From Spirochaetia bacterium (GTDB lineage: Bacteria > Spirochaetota > Spirochaetia > UBA9216): a stretch of 64,000 bases of DNA. Both the position numbers and the translations under genes were made by a program. The notes beneath the pieces are model-generated. The model was not told the origin of the DNA and did not search any database. It worked only from the letters and a program-made list of their open reading frames with translations. Below, one piece after another: positions 1 through 48,137 of the stretch (its first letter is position 1; each line of letters starts with the position of its first letter). The DNA is taken from assembly GCA_965140585.1 (NCBI GenBank), contig OZ223272.1:480001-544000 (forward strand), read 5' to 3'.

Positions 1-271
1 TCAAAAGATATCTATACCCTTCTTCATAAGCACTTTTTATTATAAGAGATAACATTAAAACATGCTCTTCAATATAATGAGTTTCACCTATAAAGATGAT
101 TCGATTCTTTGAAAAAGCGGTTAATAAATTTTCTGGTAAATTCGATATTGATTTTGGCTTATCAAAATATGAGGCTTCACTAACATATTTTCGTTCTGGA
201 GATTGTTGCTTGGTTGTGCAACTAAAAAGTATTAATAAAATCAAAATAAGAGCTGTAAACTTTTTTAACAT
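1..271 (-). CDS. Cassette-borne lipoprotein, possibly EreA/ChaN/TraB-like; 3' end outside the window (absent from the ORF track)
   Basis: Manual translation: MLKKFTALILILLILFSCTTKQQ...NRIIFIGETHYIEEH...; lipobox LFSC, GExH motif, AAGGA RBS upstream, frame open to base 1. Confidence 0.75.
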   Translation of the reverse strand, partial: MLKKFTALILILLILFSCTTKQQSPERKYVSEASYFDKPKSISNLPENLLTAFSKNRIIFIGETHYIEEHVLMLSLIIKSAYEEGYRYLL

Positions 272-351
272 TTTATATATCCTTCATTCTTAAATGTTTG
301 AGCCATGGACGGCTCAAACTCTTATTCTTAATTACTCTTGGCGCTTATTGA

Positions 352-443
352 CTATAACGTTCCAGGGTTATACGACGTTCGGCAAAGCCGAATGTGGCGC
401 AGCCCGGAGGCCGTATGGCCGGAGCGAATAACCCTTGTTATAG
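352..443 (-). repeat. attC-like site (kinase type, 92 bp)
   Basis: CTATAAC...GTTATAG outer pair, AGGGTTAT/ATAACCCT inner pair, internal hairpin ACGTTCGGC-AAA-GCCGAATGT. Confidence 0.85.
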
Positions 444-494
444 GCAGTAAGCGCCTCTTTGATTACATGTAGTGAGGCACGGATGCCGAACGGA

Positions 495-702
495 AATCTT
501 TCTTCTTAATCTTTCTTCTTAATCTTTCTTCTTAATCTTTCTTCTTAATCTTTCTTCTTAATCTTTCTTCTTAATCTTTCTTCTTAATCTTTCTTCTTAA
601 TCTTTCTTCTTAATCTTTCTTCTTAATCTTTCTTCTTAATCTTTCTTCTTAATCTTTCTTCTTAATCTTTCTTCTTAATCTTTCTTCTTAATCTTTCTTC
701 TT
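495..702. repeat. 13-bp tandem repeat (AATCTTTCTTCTT)x16
   Basis: 208 bp = 16 exact units counted by hand. Confidence 0.95.
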
Positions 703-1191
703 AACAACATCTTCATAAATCATTGAAACAGCATCTGGAATGGATAAGTTTGAATTAATTCTGCTCTCAGAAATAATTCCAATCAAATCTTCTTCTCTCC
801 ACCACTTCCTCATATCCTCTTCTCCAAAATCAGAACTATTTGATTTCGATTTATGTCGTCGTATTGTCTCTTCAAAAGATAAATCATAATAATAAGCAAA
901 TATTTCAGAGTCAAATTCTTCTATTGCTTTTTTAAATAATCTAAGATAATAATCTGAGTATAAAATACCTTCTAAAATTACAAATTCTGAATTTCTCTTT
1001 CCATATTTAATTAATTCCTCTAAAAGTGGGATTGCCTTATTTTCAATTCTATCATGAACCCATAACATCTCTCTTCTTATATAATCCTGAGAAATCATCA
1101 TAGTATTTCGACCCAATTTTCTTTGTAATGATTTTGCTAAGGAAGTTTTTCCACTTCCTGAATTACCTCTAATAATTATTAGCTTTGACAT
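688..1191 (-). CDS. P-loop kinase (AAA_33/nucleoside-kinase-like), cassette copy 1
   Basis: Walker A IIRGNSGSGKT, 167 aa; AGAGGG RBS. Confidence 0.85.
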   Translation of the reverse strand: MSKLIIIRGNSGSGKTSLAKSLQRKLGRNTMMISQDYIRREMLWVHDRIENKAIPLLEELIKYGKRNSEFVILEGILYSDYYLRLFKKAIEEFDSEIFAYYYDLSFEETIRRHKSKSNSSDFGEEDMRKWWREEDLIGIISESRINSNLSIPDAVSMIYEDVVKKKD

Positions 1192-1268
1192 CTACTTTTT
1201 ATTTCCCTCTTAGAATCCGCCACGGAAGGCGGATTTCTTTCTTCTCGAAAAATCTTGGCGCTTATTGC

Positions 1269-1360
1269 CTATAACGTTCCAGGGTTATACGACGTTCGGC
1301 AAAGCCGAATGTGGCGCAGCCCGGAGGTCGTATGGCCGGAGCGAATAACCCTTGTTATAG
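1269..1360 (-). repeat. attC-like site (kinase type)
   Basis: Copy of 352-443 with one internal SNP (ggaggtcg). Confidence 0.85.
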
Positions 1361-1379
1361 GCAGTAAGCGCCTCTTTGA

Positions 1380-1913
1380 TTACATGTAGTGAGGCACGGA
1401 TGCCGAACGGAAATCTTTCTTCTTAACAACGTCTTCATAAATCATTGAAACAGCATCTGGAATGGATAAGTCTGAATTAATTCTGCTCTCAGAAATAATT
1501 CCAATCAAATCTTCTTCTCTCCACCACTTCCTCATATCCTCTTCTCCAAAATCAGAACTATTTGATTTCGATTTATGTCGTCGTATTGTCTCTTCAAAAG
1601 ATAAATCATAATAATAAGCAAATATTTCAGAGTCAAATTCTTCTATTGCTTTTTTAAATAATCTAAGATAATAATCTGAGTATAAAATACCTTCTAAAAT
1701 TACAAATTCTGAATTTCTCTTTCCATATTTAATTAATTCCTCTAAAAGTGGGATTGCCTTATTTTCAATTCTATCATGAACCCATAACATCTCTCTTCTT
1801 ATATAATCCTGAGAAATCATCATAGTATTTCGACCCAATTTTCTTTGTAATGATTTTGCTAAGGAAGTTTTTCCACTTCCTGAATTACCTCTAATAATTA
1901 TTAGCTTTGACAT
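1380..1913 (-). CDS. P-loop kinase, cassette copy 2 (single repeat unit, 10-aa C-terminal extension)
   Basis: Same protein with an N->D change; reads through to FRSASVPHYM. Confidence 0.85.
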   Translation of the reverse strand: MSKLIIIRGNSGSGKTSLAKSLQRKLGRNTMMISQDYIRREMLWVHDRIENKAIPLLEELIKYGKRNSEFVILEGILYSDYYLRLFKKAIEEFDSEIFAYYYDLSFEETIRRHKSKSNSSDFGEEDMRKWWREEDLIGIISESRINSDLSIPDAVSMIYEDVVKKKDFRSASVPHYM

Positions 1914-1990
1914 CTACTTTTTATTTCCCTCTTAGAATCCGCCACGGAAGGCGGATTTCTTTCTTCTCGAAAAATCTTGGCGCTTATTGC

Positions 1991-2082
1991 CTATAACGTT
2001 CCAGGGTTATACGACGTTCGGCAAAGCCGAATGTGGCGCAGCCCGGAGGCCGTATGGCCGGAGCGAATAACCCTTGTTATAG
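1991..2082 (-). repeat. attC-like site (kinase type)
   Basis: Copy of 352-443. Confidence 0.85.
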
Positions 2083-2133
2083 GCAGTAAGCGCCTCTTTG
2101 ATTACATGTAGTGAGGCACGGATGCCGAACGGA

Positions 2134-2276
2134 AATCTTTCTTCTTAATCTTTCTTCTTAATCTTTCTTCTTAATCTTTCTTCTTAATCTTTCTTCTTAA
2201 TCTTTCTTCTTAATCTTTCTTCTTAATCTTTCTTCTTAATCTTTCTTCTTAATCTTTCTTCTTAATCTTTCTTCTT
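2134..2276. repeat. 13-bp tandem repeat (AATCTTTCTTCTT)x11
   Basis: 143 bp = 11 exact units. Confidence 0.95.
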
Positions 2277-2765
2277 AACAACATCTTCATAAATCATTGA
2301 AACAGCATCTGGAATGGATAAGTTTGAATTAATTCTGCTCTCAGAAATAATTCCAATCAAATCTTCTTCTCTCCACCACTTCCTCATATCCTCTTCTCCA
2401 AAATCAGAACTATTTGATTTCGATTTATGTCGTCGTATTGTCTCTTCAAAAGATAAATCATAATAATAAGCAAATATTTCAGAGTCAAATTCTTCTATTG
2501 CTTTTTTAAATAATCTAAGATAATAATCTGAGTATAAAATACCTTCTAAAATTACAAATTCTGAATTTCTCTTTCCATATTTAATTAATTCCTCTAAAAG
2601 TGGGATTGCCTTATTTTCAATTCTATCATGAACCCATAACATCTCTCTTCTTATATAATCCTGAGAAATCATCATAGTATTTCGACCCAATTTTCTTTGT
2701 AATGATTTTGCTAAGGAAGTTTTTCCACTTCCTGAATTACCTCTAATAATTATTAGCTTTGACAT
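2262..2765 (-). CDS. P-loop kinase, cassette copy 3
   Basis: Protein identical to 688-1191. Confidence 0.85.
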   Translation of the reverse strand: MSKLIIIRGNSGSGKTSLAKSLQRKLGRNTMMISQDYIRREMLWVHDRIENKAIPLLEELIKYGKRNSEFVILEGILYSDYYLRLFKKAIEEFDSEIFAYYYDLSFEETIRRHKSKSNSSDFGEEDMRKWWREEDLIGIISESRINSNLSIPDAVSMIYEDVVKKKD

Positions 2766-2842
2766 CTACTTTTTATTTCCCTCTTAGAATCCGCCACGGA
2801 AGGCGGATTTCTTTCTTCTCGAAAAATCTTGGCGCTTATTGC

Positions 2843-2934
2843 CTATAACGTCCCGGGGTTATACGACGTTCGGCAAAGCCGAATGTGGCGCAGCCCGAAG
2901 CCCGAATGGGCGGAGCGTATAGCCCCTGTTATGC
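2843..2934 (-). repeat. attC-like site (A type, 92 bp)
   Basis: ATAAC-GTCCCGGG-GTTATACG...CGTATAGC-CCCT-GTTATGC; left half shared with kinase-type sites. Confidence 0.85.
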
Positions 2935-3328
2935 GACGTCGCCTTTATTAGAGAAAGATTCCGACCAATCAAACGATCTAAATAATCTCCTCTTACCATT
3001 TCTACCCAATATTCTATTCGCCCTTTGCGACTTTCACAATCATTTTTATTTTACCTGCAAGTCAACGAGCAAAGCGAGTGTGGCAGACTTGCCAAACGGA
3101 AAAACCTGTCATGCCCACGAAGCAGATTTTGATAATTATAAGCCAATACTTTTTCTTTAACGTCAGAACAAACATCGTCCAGCGCAACGACCTTCTTTTA
3201 ACAACCAAATCAAAATCCAAAATCTTCCTCATTCCAGGGCGAATTGAATATTGTAAACTATTTGGTAATCACTTGTGGTTCGGAACTTTCTCCACCCCAA
3301 GATCATGCTCCTGCGATGTCCGCATAAC
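2850..3328. other. ORF-less cassette A1 (479 bp), candidate structured RNA/ssDNA
   Basis: No ORF conserved across copies; nested inverted repeats; near-identical to A2 and A3. Confidence 0.75.
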
Positions 3329-3413
3329 GTCCCGGGGTTATACGACGTTCGGCAAAGCCGAATGTGGCGCAGCCCGAAGCCCGAATGGGCGGAGCGTATA
3401 GCCCCTGTTATGC
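3322..3413 (-). repeat. attC-like site (A type)
   Basis: Copy of 2843-2934. Confidence 0.85.
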
Positions 3414-3809
3414 GACGTCGCCTTTATTAGAGAAAGATTCCGATCAATCAAACGATCTAAATAATCTCCTCTTACCATTTCTACCCAATATTCTATTCGC
3501 CCTTTGCGACTTTCACAATCATTTTTTTTCACCTGCAAGTTAACGAGCAAAGCGAGTGTGGCAGACTTGCCAAACGGAAAAACCTGTCATGCCCACGAAG
3601 CAGATTTTGATAATTATAAGCCAATACTTTTTCTTTAACGTCAGAACAAACATCGTCCAACGCAACAACCTTCTTCTAACAACAACCAAATCAAAATCCA
3701 AAATCTTCCTCATTCCAGGGCGAATTAAATATTGCAAACTATTTGGTAATCACTTATGGTTCGGAACTTTCTCCACCCCAAGATCATGCTCCGGCGATGT
3801 CCGCATAAC
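3329..3809. other. ORF-less cassette A2 (481 bp)
   Basis: Near-identical to A1, with SNPs and small indels. Confidence 0.75.
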
Positions 3810-3981
3810 GTCCGCGGTTATGTGATGTTTTGTGGTCGGGCCCTACAGGCCGATTGGCAACTCTTTTGCATTCAGCGCCTTTACCCTCTATCTTGCTACT
3901 ACTTCGCAAAAGTGGTGACAAAGCAAAATATGCCGCAGGCCAAGGAGCGTTTAGCGACGCCGCACATAGCCGCTGTTATAC
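3803..3981 (-). repeat. attC-like site (B type, ~179 bp)
   Basis: ATAAC-GTCCGCG-GTTATGTG...CACATAGC-CGCT-GTTATAC. Confidence 0.8.
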
Positions 3982-4372
3982 GCCGTCACAGAATAAAGAA
4001 AGTTGTACATCATCTTCATAATCTAAACATTTATTTCACATTTCAAACTTCTTTAATATTCTATTCGACCATACTGACTTTCACAATCTTTTTTATTTAC
4101 TCCGCAAAATAACGAGCTTTGCGAGTGGGCCAGTTTTGCATAAACGTTTCTGCATGCCCCAGCCCCGTACAGATTTTGATTATTCCAAAGCCAAAACTCT
4201 TTCATAGAACGTCAGAAAAAAGTCATTGTTTGAAATTTTTCTTCATCAAAATAGAAATCAAAATCTGAAATCATATCTTAGTCGAAGAGAATATTGCCAA
4301 CTTATTATTTCATTATTAAGCGCAGCAACTTTCTTCCACCCAATATCCTTGCCCAAAGTGATGGAGTATAAC
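3810..4372. other. ORF-less cassette B1 (563 bp), divergent homolog of the A cassettes
   Basis: Shares blocks AATATTCTATTCG, GACTTTCACAATC, AACGAGCnnnGCGAGTG, CAGATTTTGAT, AACGTCAGAA and AATCAAAATC with A. Confidence 0.75.
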
Positions 4373-4514
4373 GTCCGTGGTTAAGCGAAGCTGATGCGCA
4401 ACTAAAGGAGTGTTTTGCGAATGCGCAAAACCGACTGACCCTGCTCTACTTCTCCGTAAGCTTCAGTTTGGGTGAAAGCGCCATGGCGCTTTCACCGCTT
4501 AACCATTGTTATGT
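4366..4514 (-). repeat. attC-like site (C type, ~149 bp)
   Basis: ATAAC-GTCCGTG-GTTAAGCG...CGCTTAAC-CATT-GTTATGT; internal palindrome GGTGAAAGCGCCATGGCGCTTTCACC. Confidence 0.8.
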
Positions 4515-4622
4515 GCTTTGAGCCCGACATCCAGACCGTTCAACGGAGTTAGGTCTGGATTCTTCTTTTCTTTTCCCAGGATTCTGAAAATAATCAATAC
4601 TGCTGTAAACACGTATTATGTT

Positions 4623-5201
4623 TTATAATCCTATTACTCTATTCCAATCTGCAATATACATATAAATTCTTTGAAATTCTGATGGTAGTAGCATTCTATT
4701 ATGTGCTATAAAATTTCTTGTTTTTTCAAGTTCATCCATTCTTTGTTTTAACCAATGTTGCGATGGTATCAAGGTTTCAAAAAAATGCCAAAACTCAATC
4801 ATAATTTGAGACAGCATTCCAAAATCTATAAAACCAAGAAGATCAGATTTTTCACCTTCTAACCAACTATCTTTTAAAGCGGATTCCTGACGTCTTTGAG
4901 CATGATCTTTTATTCTATTTGGAATCGAATCCCACCAATTTACCCCGATATTTTCCTGTAATGTTTCTCGAATTAGATCTCTTATTTCATTTTCAAAACA
5001 AAATATTAAACTATATAAACGAGACATTTCTAGTGCTTTATTTCTCCTATTAATCGAGAAAGGAGAGATAACCTCATTTGTTAAATCTATCTCAGTTCTC
5101 GAATCAGAAGCCCCTATTTGTATTCCTGCTTTTTGAAATTTATTTGCTTCAGATTCAAACATTAACCCTCGAAAAAGATAATCTCTTAAATCTTTAGTCA
5201 A
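4623..5201 (-). CDS. Swt1-like HEPN domain protein (putative RNase effector)
   Basis: FENEIRDLI...WW helix, IDFGML motif, HEPN Rx4H motif RNFIAH; TTG start with AAGGAG RBS overlapping the upstream stop. Confidence 0.75.
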   Translation of the reverse strand: MTKDLRDYLFRGLMFESEANKFQKAGIQIGASDSRTEIDLTNEVISPFSINRRNKALEMSRLYSLIFCFENEIRDLIRETLQENIGVNWWDSIPNRIKDHAQRRQESALKDSWLEGEKSDLLGFIDFGMLSQIMIEFWHFFETLIPSQHWLKQRMDELEKTRNFIAHNRMLLPSEFQRIYMYIADWNRVIGL

Positions 5202-5814
5202 TTAAATGCTCCTTAACACTTTTAAATATTGCGTTATAAACTTCTATATCTTTTGTTGCTGGTAAATGTATCTGAATATTATAATGTAATGAAGTTTGAC
5301 TGATCTTCCTTTCAATTGACTCAATTTTTTCTGGCTCGATTTCTTCTTTCTCATTATCATTATCTTCTACTATTTTTGTCTCTTCAACTACATCAGAATT
5401 TATATCTGCAAATTCTAATAGTGAATAAAATGTTTTCATCATCAATTCTGCATTGCGTTCTGAAGTATTATGAGTACTTTTAAACTTACCTTTTATTAAT
5501 TCTTTATCTTTATCTTCAGGATATCTGCTAATAGTAAAAATATCCGAATATGCCTCTTTAATTGCTTTGCCCAAGATTTTTCGTGATAAAGCTTCATTTC
5601 TAAATTCTTTATATTCATCAGTTGGTGATCCATCCTCTGTTAAAAACCCTAAAGCTTTTAATAATGGAATAAATGCTCTATGATTAGTCGAAGTAAATCC
5701 TATATCTTTCAAATGCTGATTAGTAAATTTCCCAGGAGCTTGTCCTTGTTTTATTTTATTAAAAAAATCTCCTAATTGACCATAAACTTGCAGCGGAATA
5801 TTTGCCAAACTCAT
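5194..5814 (-). CDS. DUF5343-like protein
   Basis: QAPGKFT..HLKDIGF.S.N.R...LLKALGFL..DG.PT..Y pattern and C-terminal LHYNIQIHLP, recognised from memory. Confidence 0.7.
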   Translation of the reverse strand: MSLANIPLQVYGQLGDFFNKIKQGQAPGKFTNQHLKDIGFTSTNHRAFIPLLKALGFLTEDGSPTDEYKEFRNEALSRKILGKAIKEAYSDIFTISRYPEDKDKELIKGKFKSTHNTSERNAELMMKTFYSLLEFADINSDVVEETKIVEDNDNEKEEIEPEKIESIERKISQTSLHYNIQIHLPATKDIEVYNAIFKSVKEHLID

Positions 5815-5961
5815 ATTCTCTCCCTTTATTTAAATTATTTCATATATATAACATTATAACGCTAAAATAATAATTTGGATCCTTAAAAATCACAACTTAA
5901 ACATTCTCTCTTCGCCCGTCGGCCGGAGGTCCGGGCGTCTTCCTCTTGTCGGGCTCATTGC

Positions 5962-6139
5962 ACATAACGTCCCGCGGTTATGTGATGTTTTGTGCTCGGC
6001 CCTACAGGCCGATTGGCAACTCTTTTGCATTCAGCGCCTTTACCCTCTATCTTTCTCCATTTCGCAAAAGTGGTGACAAAACAAAATATGCCGCAGGCCA
6101 AGGAGCGTCTAGCGACGCCGCACATAGCCGCTGTTATAC
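5962..6139 (-). repeat. attC-like site (B type, ~178 bp)
   Basis: Near-copy of 3803-3981. Confidence 0.8.
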
Positions 6140-6531
6140 GCCGTCACAAAATAAAGAAAGTTGTACATCATCTTCACAATCTAAACATTTCTTTCACATT
6201 TCAAACTTCTTTAATATTCTATTCGACCATACTGACTTTCACAATCTTTTTTATTTACTTCGCAAAATAACGAGCTTTGCGAGTGGGCCAGTTTTGCATA
6301 AACGTTTCTGCATGCCCCAGCCCCGTACAGATTTTGATTATTCCAAAGCCAAAACTCTTTCATAGAACGTCAGAAAAAAGTCGTTGTTTGAAATTTTTCT
6401 TCATCAAAACAAAAATCAAAATCTGAAATCAGATCTTAGTCGAACAGAATATTGCAAACTTATTATTTCATTATTTAAGCGCAGCAACTTTCTTCCACCC
6501 CATATCCTTGCCAAAAGTGATGGAGTATAAC
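5969..6531. other. ORF-less cassette B2 (563 bp)
   Basis: Near-identical to B1. Confidence 0.75.
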
Positions 6532-6616
6532 GTCCCGGGGTTATACGACGTTCGGCAAAGCCGAATGTGGCGCAGCCCGAAGCCCGAATGGGCGGAGCGT
6601 ATAGCCCCTGTTATGC
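6525..6616 (-). repeat. attC-like site (A type)
   Basis: Copy of 2843-2934. Confidence 0.85.
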
Positions 6617-7014
6617 GACGTCGCCTTTATTAGAGAAAGATTCCGATCAATCAAACGATCTAAATAATCTCCTCTTACCATTTCTACCCAATATTCTATT
6701 CGCCCTTTGCGACTTTCACAATCATTTTTATTTCACCTGCAAGTCAACGAGCAAAGTGAGTGTGGCAGACTTGCCAAACTGAAAAAACCTGTCATGCCCA
6801 CGAAGCAGATTTTGATAATTATAAGCCAATACTTTTTCTTTAACGTCAGAACAAACATCGTCCAACGCAACGACCTTCTTATAACAACAACCAAATCAAA
6901 ATCCAAAATCTTCCTCATTCCAGGGCGAATTGAATATTGCAAACTATTTGGTAATCACTTATGGTTCGGAACTTTCTCCACCCCAAGATCATGCTCCGGC
7001 GATGTCCGCATAAC
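6532..7014. other. ORF-less cassette A3 (483 bp), first cassette next to the attI-like site
   Basis: Near-identical to A1 and A2. Confidence 0.75.
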
Positions 7015-7079
7015 TCAGAATTATAAACTGGAATATCGTGCATATAACCCTCTAGATCCAGTACTTATAAACCTGTTAT
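7008..7079 (-). other. Putative attI-like insertion site
   Basis: Cassette sequence ends at GCATAAC (7014) and is followed by non-attC sequence with further ATAAC/ATAAAC motifs, directly downstream of the recombinase stop. Confidence 0.65.
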
Positions 7080-8153
7080 TCATAATAACCCGTCCAGTGG
7101 ACTATTTATATTTTTTAGGTCTTTAGTACTTACATGTGTATAAATCTGTGTTGTTTTTGGATCACGATGGCCTAAGAGCTCCTGAATATATCTGAGGTCT
7201 GTACCGTTTTCCAACAGGTGAGTGGCAAAGGCATGTCTTAAAGAATGTATACTTACATTTTTTTCAATACCTGTTGCTTCGATAGCTTTATAAAAGGCGT
7301 TCTGTGCAGATCTTGTAGCAAGATGGGTATCCGCACCTGCACTGCCAGGAAAAAGCCATGTATGTACCATCACTTTGGATCTGTATTCATTAATCATATG
7401 AATAATCTCAGTTGAAAGCATTACATATCTATCTTTTCGTCCTTTTGCCTGCCTGATATGAATTACTTTCCTATCGGTGTCAATATCCTGCAACTGTATT
7501 ATAACTGCTTCGCTTACTCGGAGACCTGCAGAGTATATTAATGATAATAGCAATCGGTGCTTAATATTCGGCGGAGATGTTATAATCTTCTTTACTTCTT
7601 CCCTGGATAGAATATCCGGATACTTCTTTTCTTTTTTCGGCATGGGAATCGATGCTGCAGGATTAAACAGACCGCCTAGATATCCGTATTTATAATAGCA
7701 TTTCAGGGCGCTCACACATTGTACAAAGTATGTTCTTGAGCATCCTGCAAGTGTCCGCATTTTCTCAAGATATATTTTAATATCCTCTGTCGTAACCTCT
7801 GAAGGATAAAGTTCTGTTCTTTCAAAGAACCACTTCAGCTGCATCTTATATGTTTCGATAGTATGAGGACTATAGTCTCTAAGCTTTAGATACTGCAGCA
7901 TCTTTTCCAGATAGCGGTTATGAGACGGTTCCTGATTTTCGAGAGACTTCTCATCCACATTAAACCTGCCGGTTTTATACAATGACAAAAGAAAGTGCTG
8001 CATATTTGCATCTGTATCCGGAAATGTCCATTTTTTATTTGCCGGCTGCCATTGTCTTCCCGGTATTGTACGTACAATATCAAGAACCTGAGCATCGAAA
8101 GGGAAAAATATACCTATTTTATTATTTTCTTCATAAACGATTTCAACTGCCAA
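7080..8153 (-). CDS. Tyrosine recombinase with N-terminal extension and SAM-like domain; lacks the IntI-specific insertion
   Basis: Catalytic set: AGLRVSE (R), AKGRKDR (K), HSLRH, LLGH, TQIYTH (Y). N-terminus FPFD..V...VRTIPGRQW....KKWTFP. Confidence 0.92.
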   Translation of the reverse strand: MAVEIVYEENNKIGIFFPFDAQVLDIVRTIPGRQWQPANKKWTFPDTDANMQHFLLSLYKTGRFNVDEKSLENQEPSHNRYLEKMLQYLKLRDYSPHTIETYKMQLKWFFERTELYPSEVTTEDIKIYLEKMRTLAGCSRTYFVQCVSALKCYYKYGYLGGLFNPAASIPMPKKEKKYPDILSREEVKKIITSPPNIKHRLLLSLIYSAGLRVSEAVIIQLQDIDTDRKVIHIRQAKGRKDRYVMLSTEIIHMINEYRSKVMVHTWLFPGSAGADTHLATRSAQNAFYKAIEATGIEKNVSIHSLRHAFATHLLENGTDLRYIQELLGHRDPKTTQIYTHVSTKDLKNINSPLDGLL

Positions 8154-46533: not shown

Positions 46534-46543
46534 AATCCCGTTA

Positions 46544-46642
46544 TTCTTCCGAACCCTGATACCTAAAAATCACAATATTTAAGGAATGAGGGTCGAAGGG
46601 CTGTTCCGGAAACAGAACAGCCTCCCGTGTTTGGAAAGGAAG
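46544..46642 (+). promoter_or_regulatory. Moco/Wco (molybdenum/tungsten cofactor) RNA motif
   Basis: TCCGA...CCTAA...GG..., GGCTGTTC-CGGAAACA-GAACAGCC hairpin, then GCCTCCCG...GGAAAGGA that overlaps the RBS; matches the Moco motif hallmarks as I recall them. Confidence 0.78.
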
Positions 46643-46646
46643 TGGG

Positions 46647-48137
46647 ATGCTCAAAAAATCGATTCTTGTTCTCTTATTGATCTCAGCCTCAGCAAGCGTC
46701 AGTGCTCTTGATTTCACCCTGAATGGAAAACTCTGGAAATCTTTTACATCTGAAAACCTTCATACACTCAGCTATCCGGTACCTGCAGAGGACAATAAGG
46801 CTGTTGGAATATCTATCGATGAGCTCTTCCCTCCTATGTATGAAGCATGGAAAATAAATATTTCAATTGACGGCGGCCTGATAGAAAAAAAAGAAAATCA
46901 GCTTGCCGATCTGCTTCCCCGGATTTATCTGACAGAAACAGATTCAGGATGGGCACTTAAAGGTCCCGGATGGACTGTCGAGGATGTTCAGGGCATTGAT
47001 TTACGAGGTGAAAAGCTGATTACCTCAAAGCTTGAAATATGGACAAACTGGGAAGGTGAAGATCTTCTGAAAGAAGAAATCAGCAGATATGCAGAGCTGC
47101 ATAACATCAGCATAAACACGGTTTCCGTTCCCCGGCCCGACTCCAAACTCATTGCCGTTTCAGGCGGAGGAGGAAGCGTTCCCGATATAATAATGGTTCA
47201 ATCGACCTATATGGAAAGTCTTTCGAAATCGGAAAGTATACAGAACCTTGATTACATGTATCCGGAAGGACTTATAAAAGAAGGCCGGGAGGTTTTCAGT
47301 CTTGACGGAAAAACCTGGGCGGTCCCATTTTACTATGATGCCCAGATGATGTTCATCAACACCGGGCTGATGGATACTCCAAAAAACAGCTGGACAACGA
47401 AAGACTATGAAACTTATGCCTCGCAGTTAAAAGCCCGGGGAATAATTCCGTCGGCATGGAACGCCTACTCATCATCTTTTCTTATCCCCTTTCAGATAAG
47501 CTTCGGTAAAAAGACGCTGATTGAACCTGACGGCTCGGTAATCATAAATGATGAGGCAAATATCAGATCACTTAAGTATATTCTTAGCCTGCAGGGGAGG
47601 GGCCTGATGGAGCCGATGGAACGTGATGCCATGACATCGATGTTTGTATCAGGAGATGTTGGTATGATCATAAGCGCCTCATACAGCATTCCCTATTTTG
47701 AAAAGCTTGGCATACCCTTTGAGGCAGTGCCGCTGCCGATCAACTCCGAAACCGGAATCCGGCTTTCAGGCCTTCTTGATTTCAAGGGTTTTGCAGTGCC
47801 TAAAAAAAGCCGCAATACCGCCGCAGCCGTCAGACTGATCGAATATCTCTGCGGAGCAGGCGTTCAGCAGAGATTTACCGCAGCCGTTTCAAAACTTCCC
47901 GCATCAGAAGAAGCACTGAAGCTTGCCGCAGATGCAAACAGATACATGAAGCAACTGACCATCGGATCGGAAACCGGGACAATAATCCCACCGGATCAGG
48001 CTTTTGGAATATATAAGAATACAATGTGGAAAATGCTTAGATTCGCGCTTTCAGGAAGGATGTCTCCTGAAGCTGTCTTGGAACAGACTCAGAAGATTAT
48101 AAATAACAACTTACAGCAAAAAAAGGAGATAGAATGA
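46647..48137 (+). CDS. Sugar-type (CUT1) ABC substrate-binding protein with N-terminal extension
   Basis: Signal peptide; PDII, DGKTWAVP, FVSGDVGMII in the C-terminal ~370 aa. Confidence 0.8.
   Translation: MLKKSILVLLLISASASVSALDFTLNGKLWKSFTSENLHTLSYPVPAEDNKAVGISIDELFPPMYEAWKINISIDGGLIEKKENQLADLLPRIYLTETDSGWALKGPGWTVEDVQGIDLRGEKLITSKLEIWTNWEGEDLLKEEISRYAELHNISINTVSVPRPDSKLIAVSGGGGSVPDIIMVQSTYMESLSKSESIQNLDYMYPEGLIKEGREVFSLDGKTWAVPFYYDAQMMFINTGLMDTPKNSWTTKDYETYASQLKARGIIPSAWNAYSSSFLIPFQISFGKKTLIEPDGSVIINDEANIRSLKYILSLQGRGLMEPMERDAMTSMFVSGDVGMIISASYSIPYFEKLGIPFEAVPLPINSETGIRLSGLLDFKGFAVPKKSRNTAAAVRLIEYLCGAGVQQRFTAAVSKLPASEEALKLAADANRYMKQLTIGSETGTIIPPDQAFGIYKNTMWKMLRFALSGRMSPEAVLEQTQKIINNNLQQKKEIE

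What the first reader, a model, noticed from the sequence alone, without database searches (positions are those of the whole stretch)
2850..7014. Five ORF-less cassettes form a family with a conserved ~400-nt fold supported by compensatory changes
Seen: A (x3) and B (x2) are diverged homologs without a shared ORF, yet they keep the same nested stems. P1: A 2951-2964/3280-3292, B 3996-4005/4326-4335. P2: A CAATATTCTATTCGCCCT 3007-3024/3236-3253, B AATATTCTATTCGAC 4055-4069/4281-4295 (C-G to A-T swap). P3: A GCAAGTC/GACTTGC 3057-3092, B GCAAAAT/GTTTTGC 4104-4139 (two compensatory pairs) around a conserved AACGAGCnnnGCGAGTG. P4: A GATTTTGAT/ATCAAAATC 3125-3217, B CAGATTTTGATT/AATCAAAATCTG 4170-4267. 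G.U pairs favour the + strand, antisense to the array genes. Known: ORF-less integron cassettes exist and some act as promoters. Inference: a mobile structured ncRNA (or ssDNA) making up half of the array; it could be regulatory, defensive (antitoxin/decoy) or a selfish cassette. I do not recognise it as a named RNA family.
Basis: partly seen in the sequence, partly recalled or inferred. Interest (0 to 1): 0.88.

Follow-up and report, generated by a model that had tools for sequence, protein, structure and literature searches.

The report
Gene-less integron cassette family with conserved stems
A spirochaete's cassette array is 43% filled by one family of protein-less cassettes that keep four matching stem pairs and a promoter-like site, so they probably switch on neighbouring cassettes, but no RNA data exist to prove it.

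Summary
The five cassettes (A x3, B x2) are real, homologous and non-coding. The whole array on this contig has 35 cassettes, of which 15 belong to the family (A x10, B x5). A sister species has two more copies. Searches of genomes, metagenomes and viral contigs found no other copies, and Rfam has no match.

The stem columns vary much less than the rest of the cassette. Five base pairs changed on both sides and still pair, but all five come from the single A/B split. Only about 45 pairs are conserved. Most of the predicted 400-nt fold is not kept in B. The claimed preference for the + strand is not supported.

A new point: all five cassettes carry a conserved sigma-70-like site (TTGTGA-N17-TAGAAT) on the sense strand, aimed at the next cassette. 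Its -10 lies inside one arm of P2, and its -35 is a conserved unpaired block.

My best reading is a promoter-bearing regulatory cassette (confidence 0.42). This kind is already known in Treponema and Vibrio. Here it carries an added conserved stem architecture whose role is unresolved. A structured RNA or a self-folding selfish cassette remain open. No RNA runs were available.

The parts
2849..3327 (-). Cassette A1. attC at about 2849-2931, body 2936-3322.
   Evidence: Boundaries from ATAA|C junctions. Family member.
3328..3808 (-). Cassette A2.
   Evidence: 96% identical to A1.
3809..4371 (-). Cassette B1. Long attC at about 3809-3975, body 3976-4370.
5968..6530 (-). Cassette B2.
   Evidence: 96.7% identical to B1.
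6531..7013 (-). Cassette A3, the first cassette of the array. It abuts the attI-like junction.
2951..2964 (.). P1 5' arm in A1. Its partner is 3279-3292. In B1 the arms are 3996-4005 and 4326-4335.
   Evidence: The outer pair is G-C in A and A-T in B.
3007..3024 (.). P2 5' arm in A1. Its partner is 3236-3253. In B1 the arms are 4055-4069 and 4281-4295. The arm contains the -10 hexamer of the sense-strand site.
   Evidence: 13 bases of this arm are invariant in 17 of 17 copies.
3057..3092 (.). P3 hairpin in A1, a 7-bp stem around the invariant loop AACGAGCnnnGYGAGTG. In B1 it is 4104-4139.
   Evidence: Two compensatory pairs plus one wobble. The loop motif occurs 15 times in the genome, all inside the array.
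3125..3217 (.). P4 in A1, 9 bp (GATTTTGAT / ATCAAAATC). In B1 it is 4170-4267 and has 12 bp.
   Evidence: It never varies, so it gives no covariation evidence.
3011..3039 (-). Sigma-70-like site TTGTGA-N17-TAGAAT in A1. The same site is at 3490-3518 (A2), 4058-4086 (B1), 6216-6244 (B2) and 6693-6721 (A3). An A/T-rich tract lies just upstream at 3041-3056.
   Evidence: all five cassettes, 9 of 12 matches. Conservation. A consensus match only, not a measured promoter.
7014..7079 (-). attI-like junction between the recombinase stop codon and the first cassette.
   Evidence: The segment is conserved in sister species G002, where a different cassette follows it.
7080..8153 (-). [quoted passage not shown] It lacks the integron-integrase-specific insert.

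Best explanation
These are gene-less cassettes of a sedentary, integron-like chromosomal array in a Spirochaetia genome. They form one paralogous family with two subfamilies, A and B, and the family is under purifying selection.

The best-conserved ~90 nt reads, on the sense strand, as a sigma-70-type promoter. It has an A/T-rich tract, a -35 hexamer TTGTGA, a 17-nt spacer of free sequence, and a -10 hexamer TAGAAT. It points out of the cassette, through its attC, into the next cassette.

The most likely function is an internal promoter or regulatory cassette that restarts transcription along a 35-cassette array. Such cassettes have been shown by experiment in Treponema and Vibrio.

Four nested inverted repeats (P1, P2, P3, P4) are kept around this site, and P2 includes the -10 region. 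They would pair in read-through sense RNA or in single-stranded DNA. Their role is not resolved. Candidates are control of the promoter, handling of read-through RNA, or help with the cassette's own recombination.

Shown here: the family, the lack of coding, the conserved and partly compensated stems, and the conserved consensus site. Inferred: promoter activity, and any role of the stems.
For: Promoter-like site:
- It is found in 5 of 5 cassettes at the same relative place, with both hexamers conserved and a spacer of constant length whose middle differs between A and B.
- The -35 lies in the block GACTTTCACAATC. This block has no pairing partner, yet it is identical in 15 of 17 copies.
- The P2 arm that carries the -10 is invariant in 17 of 17 copies over 13 bases. 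Its partner arm varies exactly opposite the -10 and creates mismatches there. This suggests a second, sequence-specific constraint on that arm.
- A similar site, TTGTGA-N17-TATTAT, lies 53 nt upstream of the start codon of the DUF5343 gene, the first gene of the DUF5343/HEPN cassette.

Position in the array:
- The family is interspersed with gene cassettes at positions 1, 2, 4-6, 11, 12, 15, 18, 19, 21, 22, 24, 25 and 27 of 35. Every run of family cassettes is followed by a gene cassette.

Precedent:
- ORF-less Treponema cassettes have sense-strand promoter activity, and those integrons also have the integrase on the cassette strand (PMC6557892, passages read).
- Most of 29 Vibrio gene-less cassettes have sense-strand promoters (PMC11014356; abstract, introduction and discussion read).

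Selection and non-coding status.
Against: - The site matches only 9 of 12 consensus positions. Such matches are common in this A/T-rich stretch: 21 were found against 12.5 expected from shuffles.
- In G2b the -35 is degraded to TTGTTT.
- A promoter needs about 60 nt. It does not explain conserved P1, P3 and P4, nor the five compensatory pairs.
- A transcript started at this site would lack all stems except one P1 arm.
- No expression data could be obtained.
Confidence: 0.42

Rival explanations
1. The cassette body is a gene for a structured non-coding RNA on either strand. It would act in cis on array transcripts or in trans. The stems are its fold, and the cassette is its vehicle.
For: - Four nested helices are recovered on both strands.
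- 95.7% of cells pair, against 33-41% in the slid controls, and five pairs changed on both sides.
- Stems are far less variable than loops.
- Fold z-scores are -3.9 for + and -3.4 for -.
- The P3 loop is invariant around a variable 3-nt tip. On the + strand it can form a small stem with tandem G.A pairs (the stability of tandem G.A is recalled knowledge).
- An integron cassette sRNA is known, sRNA-Xcc1 (cited in PMC6557892, passage read).
Against: - All compensatory changes come from one lineage split. G2b adds none.
- 36 of the 97 pairs of A's minimum-energy fold break in B.
- The strand is undecided.
- No conserved + strand promoter and no terminator were found in the cassettes.
- No Rfam match.
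- No complementary target stands out in the genome.
Confidence: 0.27
2. The stems act in single-stranded DNA. P1 closes the body, so the two flanking attC hairpins are drawn together, or the excised single-stranded circle is made more stable. Either would raise the cassette's own excision and re-insertion. That would make it a selfish cassette that has multiplied in the array.
For: - 15 of 35 cassettes belong to the family, all among the 27 nearest the attI-like site. The first two positions are A and B.
- In the sister species a different cassette is first at the same junction, so A's first position is a recent event.
- The copies sit between unrelated gene cassettes, so cassette-level moves are more likely than block duplication.
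- The A body occurs with three attC types: type 1 x7, type 4 x2 and type 3 x1.
- P1 starts 15 nt after one attC and ends about 30 nt before the next.
- The DNA-parameter fold of the + strand has z -6.2.
- Excision can depend on the distance between attC sites (PMC5371416, passages read).
Against: - GC skew places the attC bottom strand (+) on the leading-strand template, which is the strand less often single-stranded (rule from PMC5371416).
- The stems cover only about 45 of about 195 possible pairs, with large loops, so this is not a DNA hairpin.
- The z-score is inflated because the two identical flanking attC copies pair with each other.
- Tandem copies (A-A, and the kinase cassette x3) can also arise by slippage or homologous recombination between identical attC sites (PMC5371416, passage).
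- This reading does not explain the conserved unpaired blocks.
Confidence: 0.16
3. The cassettes are decayed remnants of protein-coding cassettes, or a transposable element (MITE) that landed in a cassette, and have no present function.
For: Some Vibrio gene-less cassettes hold truncated genes (PMC11014356, discussion read).
Against: - No Pfam match at E<=0.001 in 9 ORFs; the only hit up to E=1 is one at E 0.1, and no period-3 substitution pattern.
- No copy or motif lies outside the array, so this is not a free transposable element. No target-site duplication is seen at the P1 or P2 ends.
- Stems are significantly conserved within both subfamilies and between species.
Confidence: 0.05

Closest known systems
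Promoter-carrying ORF-less / gene-less integron cassettes (Treponema oral metagenome, Tansirichaiya 2019, PMC6557892; Vibrio superintegrons, Blanco 2024, PMC11014356)
   Same: - Short cassettes (479-563 bp here; 491-666 bp in Vibrio) without a gene, scattered through a long sedentary array.
- A sense-strand sigma-70-like site pointing at the next cassette.
[quoted passage not shown]
- An ORF-less cassette in first position, as with TMB4.
   Different: - Promoter activity has not been measured here.
- This family has 17 copies in two subfamilies and four conserved nested inverted repeats with compensatory changes. The passages I read of those papers report nothing of that kind ('secondary structure' occurs 0 times in PMC6557892).
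- No sequence similarity was found in 401 genomes sampled from the phylum.
sRNA-Xcc1, a trans-acting sRNA encoded by an ORF-less cassette of a Xanthomonas integron
   Same: It is a non-coding product carried by an integron cassette.
   Different: - No Rfam family matched at all. That Xcc1 has an Rfam model is recalled, not checked.
- No transcript is known here.
- The host phylum differs.
attC recombination sites (imperfect palindromes that fold as single-stranded DNA)
   Same: They are conserved inverted repeats inside a cassette that keep their complementarity while the sequence drifts, and they can fold on one strand.
   Different: - The family's stems lie in the body, 230-330 nt apart, and are nested with large loops.
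- They lack the ATAAC/GTTAT core boxes of this array's attC sites.
- Each cassette has its own normal attC as well.
CALIN plus In0 arrangement (Cury 2016, PMC4889954)
   Same: The array lies next to a tyrosine recombinase that lacks the IntI-specific region, while a true IntI is encoded elsewhere in the genome. The paper reports 50 non-IntI PF00589 proteins co-located with an attC site, 29 of them in genomes that encode IntI elsewhere in the replicon.
   Different: - Here the array ends at a conserved junction 66 nt after the recombinase stop codon, in two species, with different first cassettes. That looks like a working attI.
- IntegronFinder itself was not run.

Membership tests
Integron gene cassette | Bounded by attC sites, which are imperfect palindromes with inverse core sites (RYYYAAC ... 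GTTRRRY), in a tandem array. | tested here: met
   There are 35 junctions of the form ATAA|C G(T/C)C... with a GTTAT partner 80-170 nt away. The core reads GTTATRC, one base off the recalled consensus. The body is linked to the attC on its low-coordinate side: type 1 in 7 of 10 A copies, and the long type in 5 of 5 B copies.
Integron gene cassette | The array is attached to an integron integrase, meaning a tyrosine recombinase with the IntI-specific region near patch III, and to an attI site. | tested here: not met
   The adjacent recombinase scores 192.8 bits on TIGR02249 against a cut-off of 265, in two stretches. Against VchIntIA (2a3v) it has 21 residues where the integrase has 62. A true IntI (374.7 bits) lies on another contig. 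An attI-like junction is conserved. The platform is therefore integron-like, not a canonical complete integron.
Gene-less / promoter cassette (definition of Blanco 2024) | No annotated gene and no ORF longer than 210 bp. | tested here: inconclusive
   Mechanical ORFs of up to 139 aa exist, for example 5946-6365 (+), which runs from the preceding cassette through B2's attC into its body. None is conserved between family members and none has a Pfam match.
Gene-less / promoter cassette | [quoted passage not shown] | not testable with these tools
   There is only a consensus match in 5 of 5 cassettes.
Structured ncRNA family | Statistically supported covariation across many independent lineages. 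| tested here: inconclusive
   Five pairs changed on both sides, all from the one A/B split. The shuffle control for the number of such pairs gives 293 of 500 at least as high. The slid controls give 0-1. Only 17 copies exist.
Structured ncRNA family | A discrete transcript of defined strand. | not testable with these tools
   No RNA run could be examined.
Any Rfam family (including group II intron, HEARO and sRNA models) | A match at or near the family's gathering score. | tested here: not met
   No match in the region at gathering thresholds. At E up to 10 there are only chance-level hits, at most 18.6 bits against cut-offs of 40-100.
MITE / transposon remnant | Terminal inverted repeats with target-site duplication, and copies at unrelated genomic sites. 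| tested here: not met
   nhmmer finds 15 of 15 hits inside the array, each at the same place within its cassette. The motifs are absent elsewhere. No duplication flanks P1 or P2.

The most novel reading that the evidence does not exclude
The A/B body is a mobile, self-folding non-coding module that has colonised 43% of an integron-like array. One form of this reading is a structured RNA carried as a cassette, which would be a new RNA class. The other is a selfish cassette whose closing stem draws its two attC sites together and so drives its own excision and re-insertion, riding on a platform whose adjacent recombinase lacks the integron-integrase insert. In either case the promoter-like site would be secondary.
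Probability: 0.3. Interest if true: 0.75.

Novelty: new variant of a known kind. Interest (0 to 1): 0.5.

Why it matters
Gene-less cassettes are common in chromosomal integrons. Blanco 2024 quotes 6% to 49% of cassettes in Vibrio arrays. So far the only functions shown are promoter activity and one sRNA.

This family is unusual in three ways. It is multi-copy, it is conserved between species, and it has a defined set of complementary arms that overlap a promoter-like site. That makes it a clean test case. Mutating stems and hexamers separately would ask whether such cassettes are only promoters, whether structure regulates them, or whether structure serves their own mobility.

The host platform also matters. 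The array is joined at a conserved junction to a recombinase without the IntI-specific region. That bears on how integron-like systems are defined and detected.

The limits are real. The family was found in one genus only, in uncultured genomes, and without expression data.

Tried and rejected
Searches for more homologs found none beyond G000 and G002:
- BLAST of A against the 11 genomes of the family.
- BLAST of B against 401 genomes sampled from the phylum. Only short hits of 22-64 nt appeared.
- Covariance model R1 (107 positions, 11 pairs) against 11 genomes of the order and 151 of the class. Two had matches each time, G000 and G002.
- Pattern scans of genome contigs. They returned only G002's contig plus three hits that are coding sequence and do not match the family profile.
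- One pattern scan of metagenome contigs. Its single hit lies in a GC-rich coding region.
- One pattern scan of viral contigs. Five hits match only over the pattern itself.
- BLAST against plasmids found nothing.

Expression: no RNA holder was listed by the look-up of sequencing runs.

Laying contigs of three runs gave only short pieces that break at the repeated attC sites. Nothing about function or excision could be read from them.

Other leads that went nowhere:
- Target search. 14-mers shared between A/B and the rest of the genome are A/T-rich chance matches.
- + strand promoter and terminators. None is conserved.
- Small ORFs downstream of the promoter-like site, and at the sense 5' end of the cassette. 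A and B differ in frame (read).
- My first three crude attC scanners were faulty and found nothing even in the known array. I dropped them. So whether the true IntI on contig C6 has its own array is not settled. A looser junction pattern shows that this attC type clusters only on C9.
- Supplementary files of the papers were not opened. Cassette sequences and promoter maps in the supplements of PMC6557892 and PMC11014356 could bear on similarity to known promoter cassettes.

Full report
SETTING. The window is contig C9:480001-544000 of a 4.85-Mb genome. A near relative is filed as a Spirochaetia MAG. Window 1-7013 is the proximal part of a cassette array that continues beyond the window start to about C9:455966. 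Junctions of the form ATAA|C G(T/C)C..., each with a GTTAT partner, mark 35 cassettes. All cassette genes are on the - strand.

Each A or B body keeps the attC on its low-coordinate side. That attC is type 1 in 7 of 10 A copies and the long type in 5 of 5 B copies, while the high-side neighbour varies. So the - strand is the cassettes' top (sense) strand and the + strand is the attC bottom strand. GC skew of the + strand is negative along the whole contig. This puts the bottom strand on the leading-strand template, the orientation reported for large sedentary integrons (PMC5371416, passages read).

THE PLATFORM. A 357-aa tyrosine recombinase (7080-8153, - strand) ends 66 nt before the first cassette. 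It is not a canonical integron integrase.
- It scores 192.8 bits on TIGR02249 against a cut-off of 265, in two stretches. Its best family is NF040815.
- Against VchIntIA (2a3v) it has 21 residues where the integrase has 62, which is the IntI-specific region.
- Its relatives are named XerD, tyrosine recombinase or 'recombinase/integron integrase'.
- A true IntI (374.7 bits) lies on contig C6.
- In sister species G002 the same recombinase (96% identical) is followed by the same 66-nt junction and then a different first cassette. The junction therefore behaves like an attI.

THE FAMILY. Genome-wide there are 10 A copies (93-100% identical) and 5 B copies (94.7-100%), all in this array. G002 has two A-like copies, at 91% and 84%. 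That makes 15 of 35 cassettes. All lie among the 27 nearest the junction, and positions 1 and 2 are A and B. Each of the five B copies is next to an A copy. The neighbouring gene cassettes all differ, so the copies were spread cassette by cassette. No copy was found elsewhere, and no Rfam family matches.

NOT CODING.
- Substitutions between family members fall evenly on the three codon phases (11/9/9, 24/19/16 and 51/45/44).
- One-base indels separate even close copies.
- No frame is open across the family.
- None of nine of the longest ORFs has a Pfam match at E<=0.001, and the only match up to E=1 is one weak hit at E 0.1.

THE STEMS. RNAalifold recovers P1, P2, P3 and a small inner P3 stem. 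With a local-pair alignment it also recovers P4, on either strand.
- On 11 sequences, 95.7% of cells in 36 pairs are standard pairs, against 33-41% when partners are slid. Five pairs changed on both sides: one in P1, two in P2 and two in P3.
- Stem columns vary far less than the rest. The counts are 6 of 90 against 104 of 303 in the A clade (p 4e-8), 1 of 90 against 33 of 306 in B (p 0.002), and 15 of 90 against 152 of 317 between A and B. The last comparison is partly circular, because the stems were chosen for being shared.

The limits of this evidence are these.
- All five double changes belong to the one A/B split.
- G2b changes nothing in the core stems.
- P4 never varies.
- The shuffle control for the number of double-changed pairs is not significant (293 of 500).
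- A's own minimum-energy fold is mostly not kept in B. Of 97 pairs, 44 are the same, 14 are kept through change, 36 are broken and 3 fall in gaps.

So there is a conserved scaffold of about 45 pairs, not a conserved 400-nt fold.

The strand is undecided. I count about 4 independent G.T events on + against about 3 that would be G.T on -. Consensus energy is -34.4 for + and -40.5 for -. Single-sequence z-scores are -3.9 and -3.4. Only the tandem G.A option in the P3 loop leans towards +, and that rests on recalled knowledge of G.A stability.

THE PROMOTER-LIKE SITE. The scan finds TTGTGA-N17-TAGAAT on the - strand in all five cassettes at the same relative position.
- The -10 lies inside the P2 arm, which is invariant in all 17 copies. 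The partner arm varies exactly opposite the -10 and makes mismatches there.
- The -35 lies in a conserved block that has no partner.
- The middle of the spacer differs between A and B, but its length does not.
- An A/T-rich tract precedes the -35.
- The site fires towards the cassette's attC and the next cassette.
- A like site precedes the DUF5343/HEPN operon.

Sense-strand promoter activity of ORF-less cassettes has been shown by experiment in Treponema (PMC6557892, passages) and Vibrio (PMC11014356; abstract, introduction and discussion). Against this reading, the match is only 9 of 12, such matches are frequent here (21 found against 12.5 expected), and G2b's -35 is weaker.

VERDICT. The most economical reading is a promoter or regulatory cassette family, a known kind, with an added conserved stem architecture that the promoter alone does not explain (confidence 0.42). 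A structured RNA (0.27) and a DNA-level role in the cassette's own mobility (0.16) remain open, and these readings do not exclude one another. Decay or a transposon remnant is unlikely (0.05). The data at hand cannot decide, because no RNA runs were found and only 17 copies exist in one genus.

Noticed in passing
window 7080-8153 (-); G000:C6:916649-917575: The recombinase joined to the array lacks the integron-integrase-specific region. A canonical IntI sits alone on another contig. The 66-nt junction after the recombinase gene is conserved in the sister species, where a different first cassette follows it. This may be an integron-like platform run by, or at least anchored at, a Xer-like enzyme.
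   Followed up: partly
window about 487-700 and 2130-2275 (absent near 1420): A 13-nt tandem repeat (unit TCTTTCTTCTTAA on +) lies between the kinase gene's end and the attC. It is present in two of three tandem copies of one kinase-like cassette, with different copy numbers (about 17, 0-1 and about 11).
   Followed up: no
window 4372-5967: A two-gene cassette encodes DUF5343 (5194-5814) and a Swt1-like HEPN protein (4623-5201). It has its own TTGTGA-N17-TATTAT site at 5895-5867. It could be a toxin-antitoxin or defence pair.
   Followed up: no
G000:C9:455966-487013: All five B cassettes lie directly beside an A cassette, three times A then B in sense order and twice B then A. The family is missing from the eight cassettes farthest from the junction.
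   Followed up: partly
window 46535-46657 (+): Molybdenum cofactor riboswitch, 74.6 bits against a gathering score of 36.
   Followed up: no
window 1211-1232, 1933-1954, 2785-2806: A perfect short hairpin (TCCGCC ... GGCGGA) sits in the 5' leader of each kinase cassette, just upstream of the ribosome-binding site.
   Followed up: no
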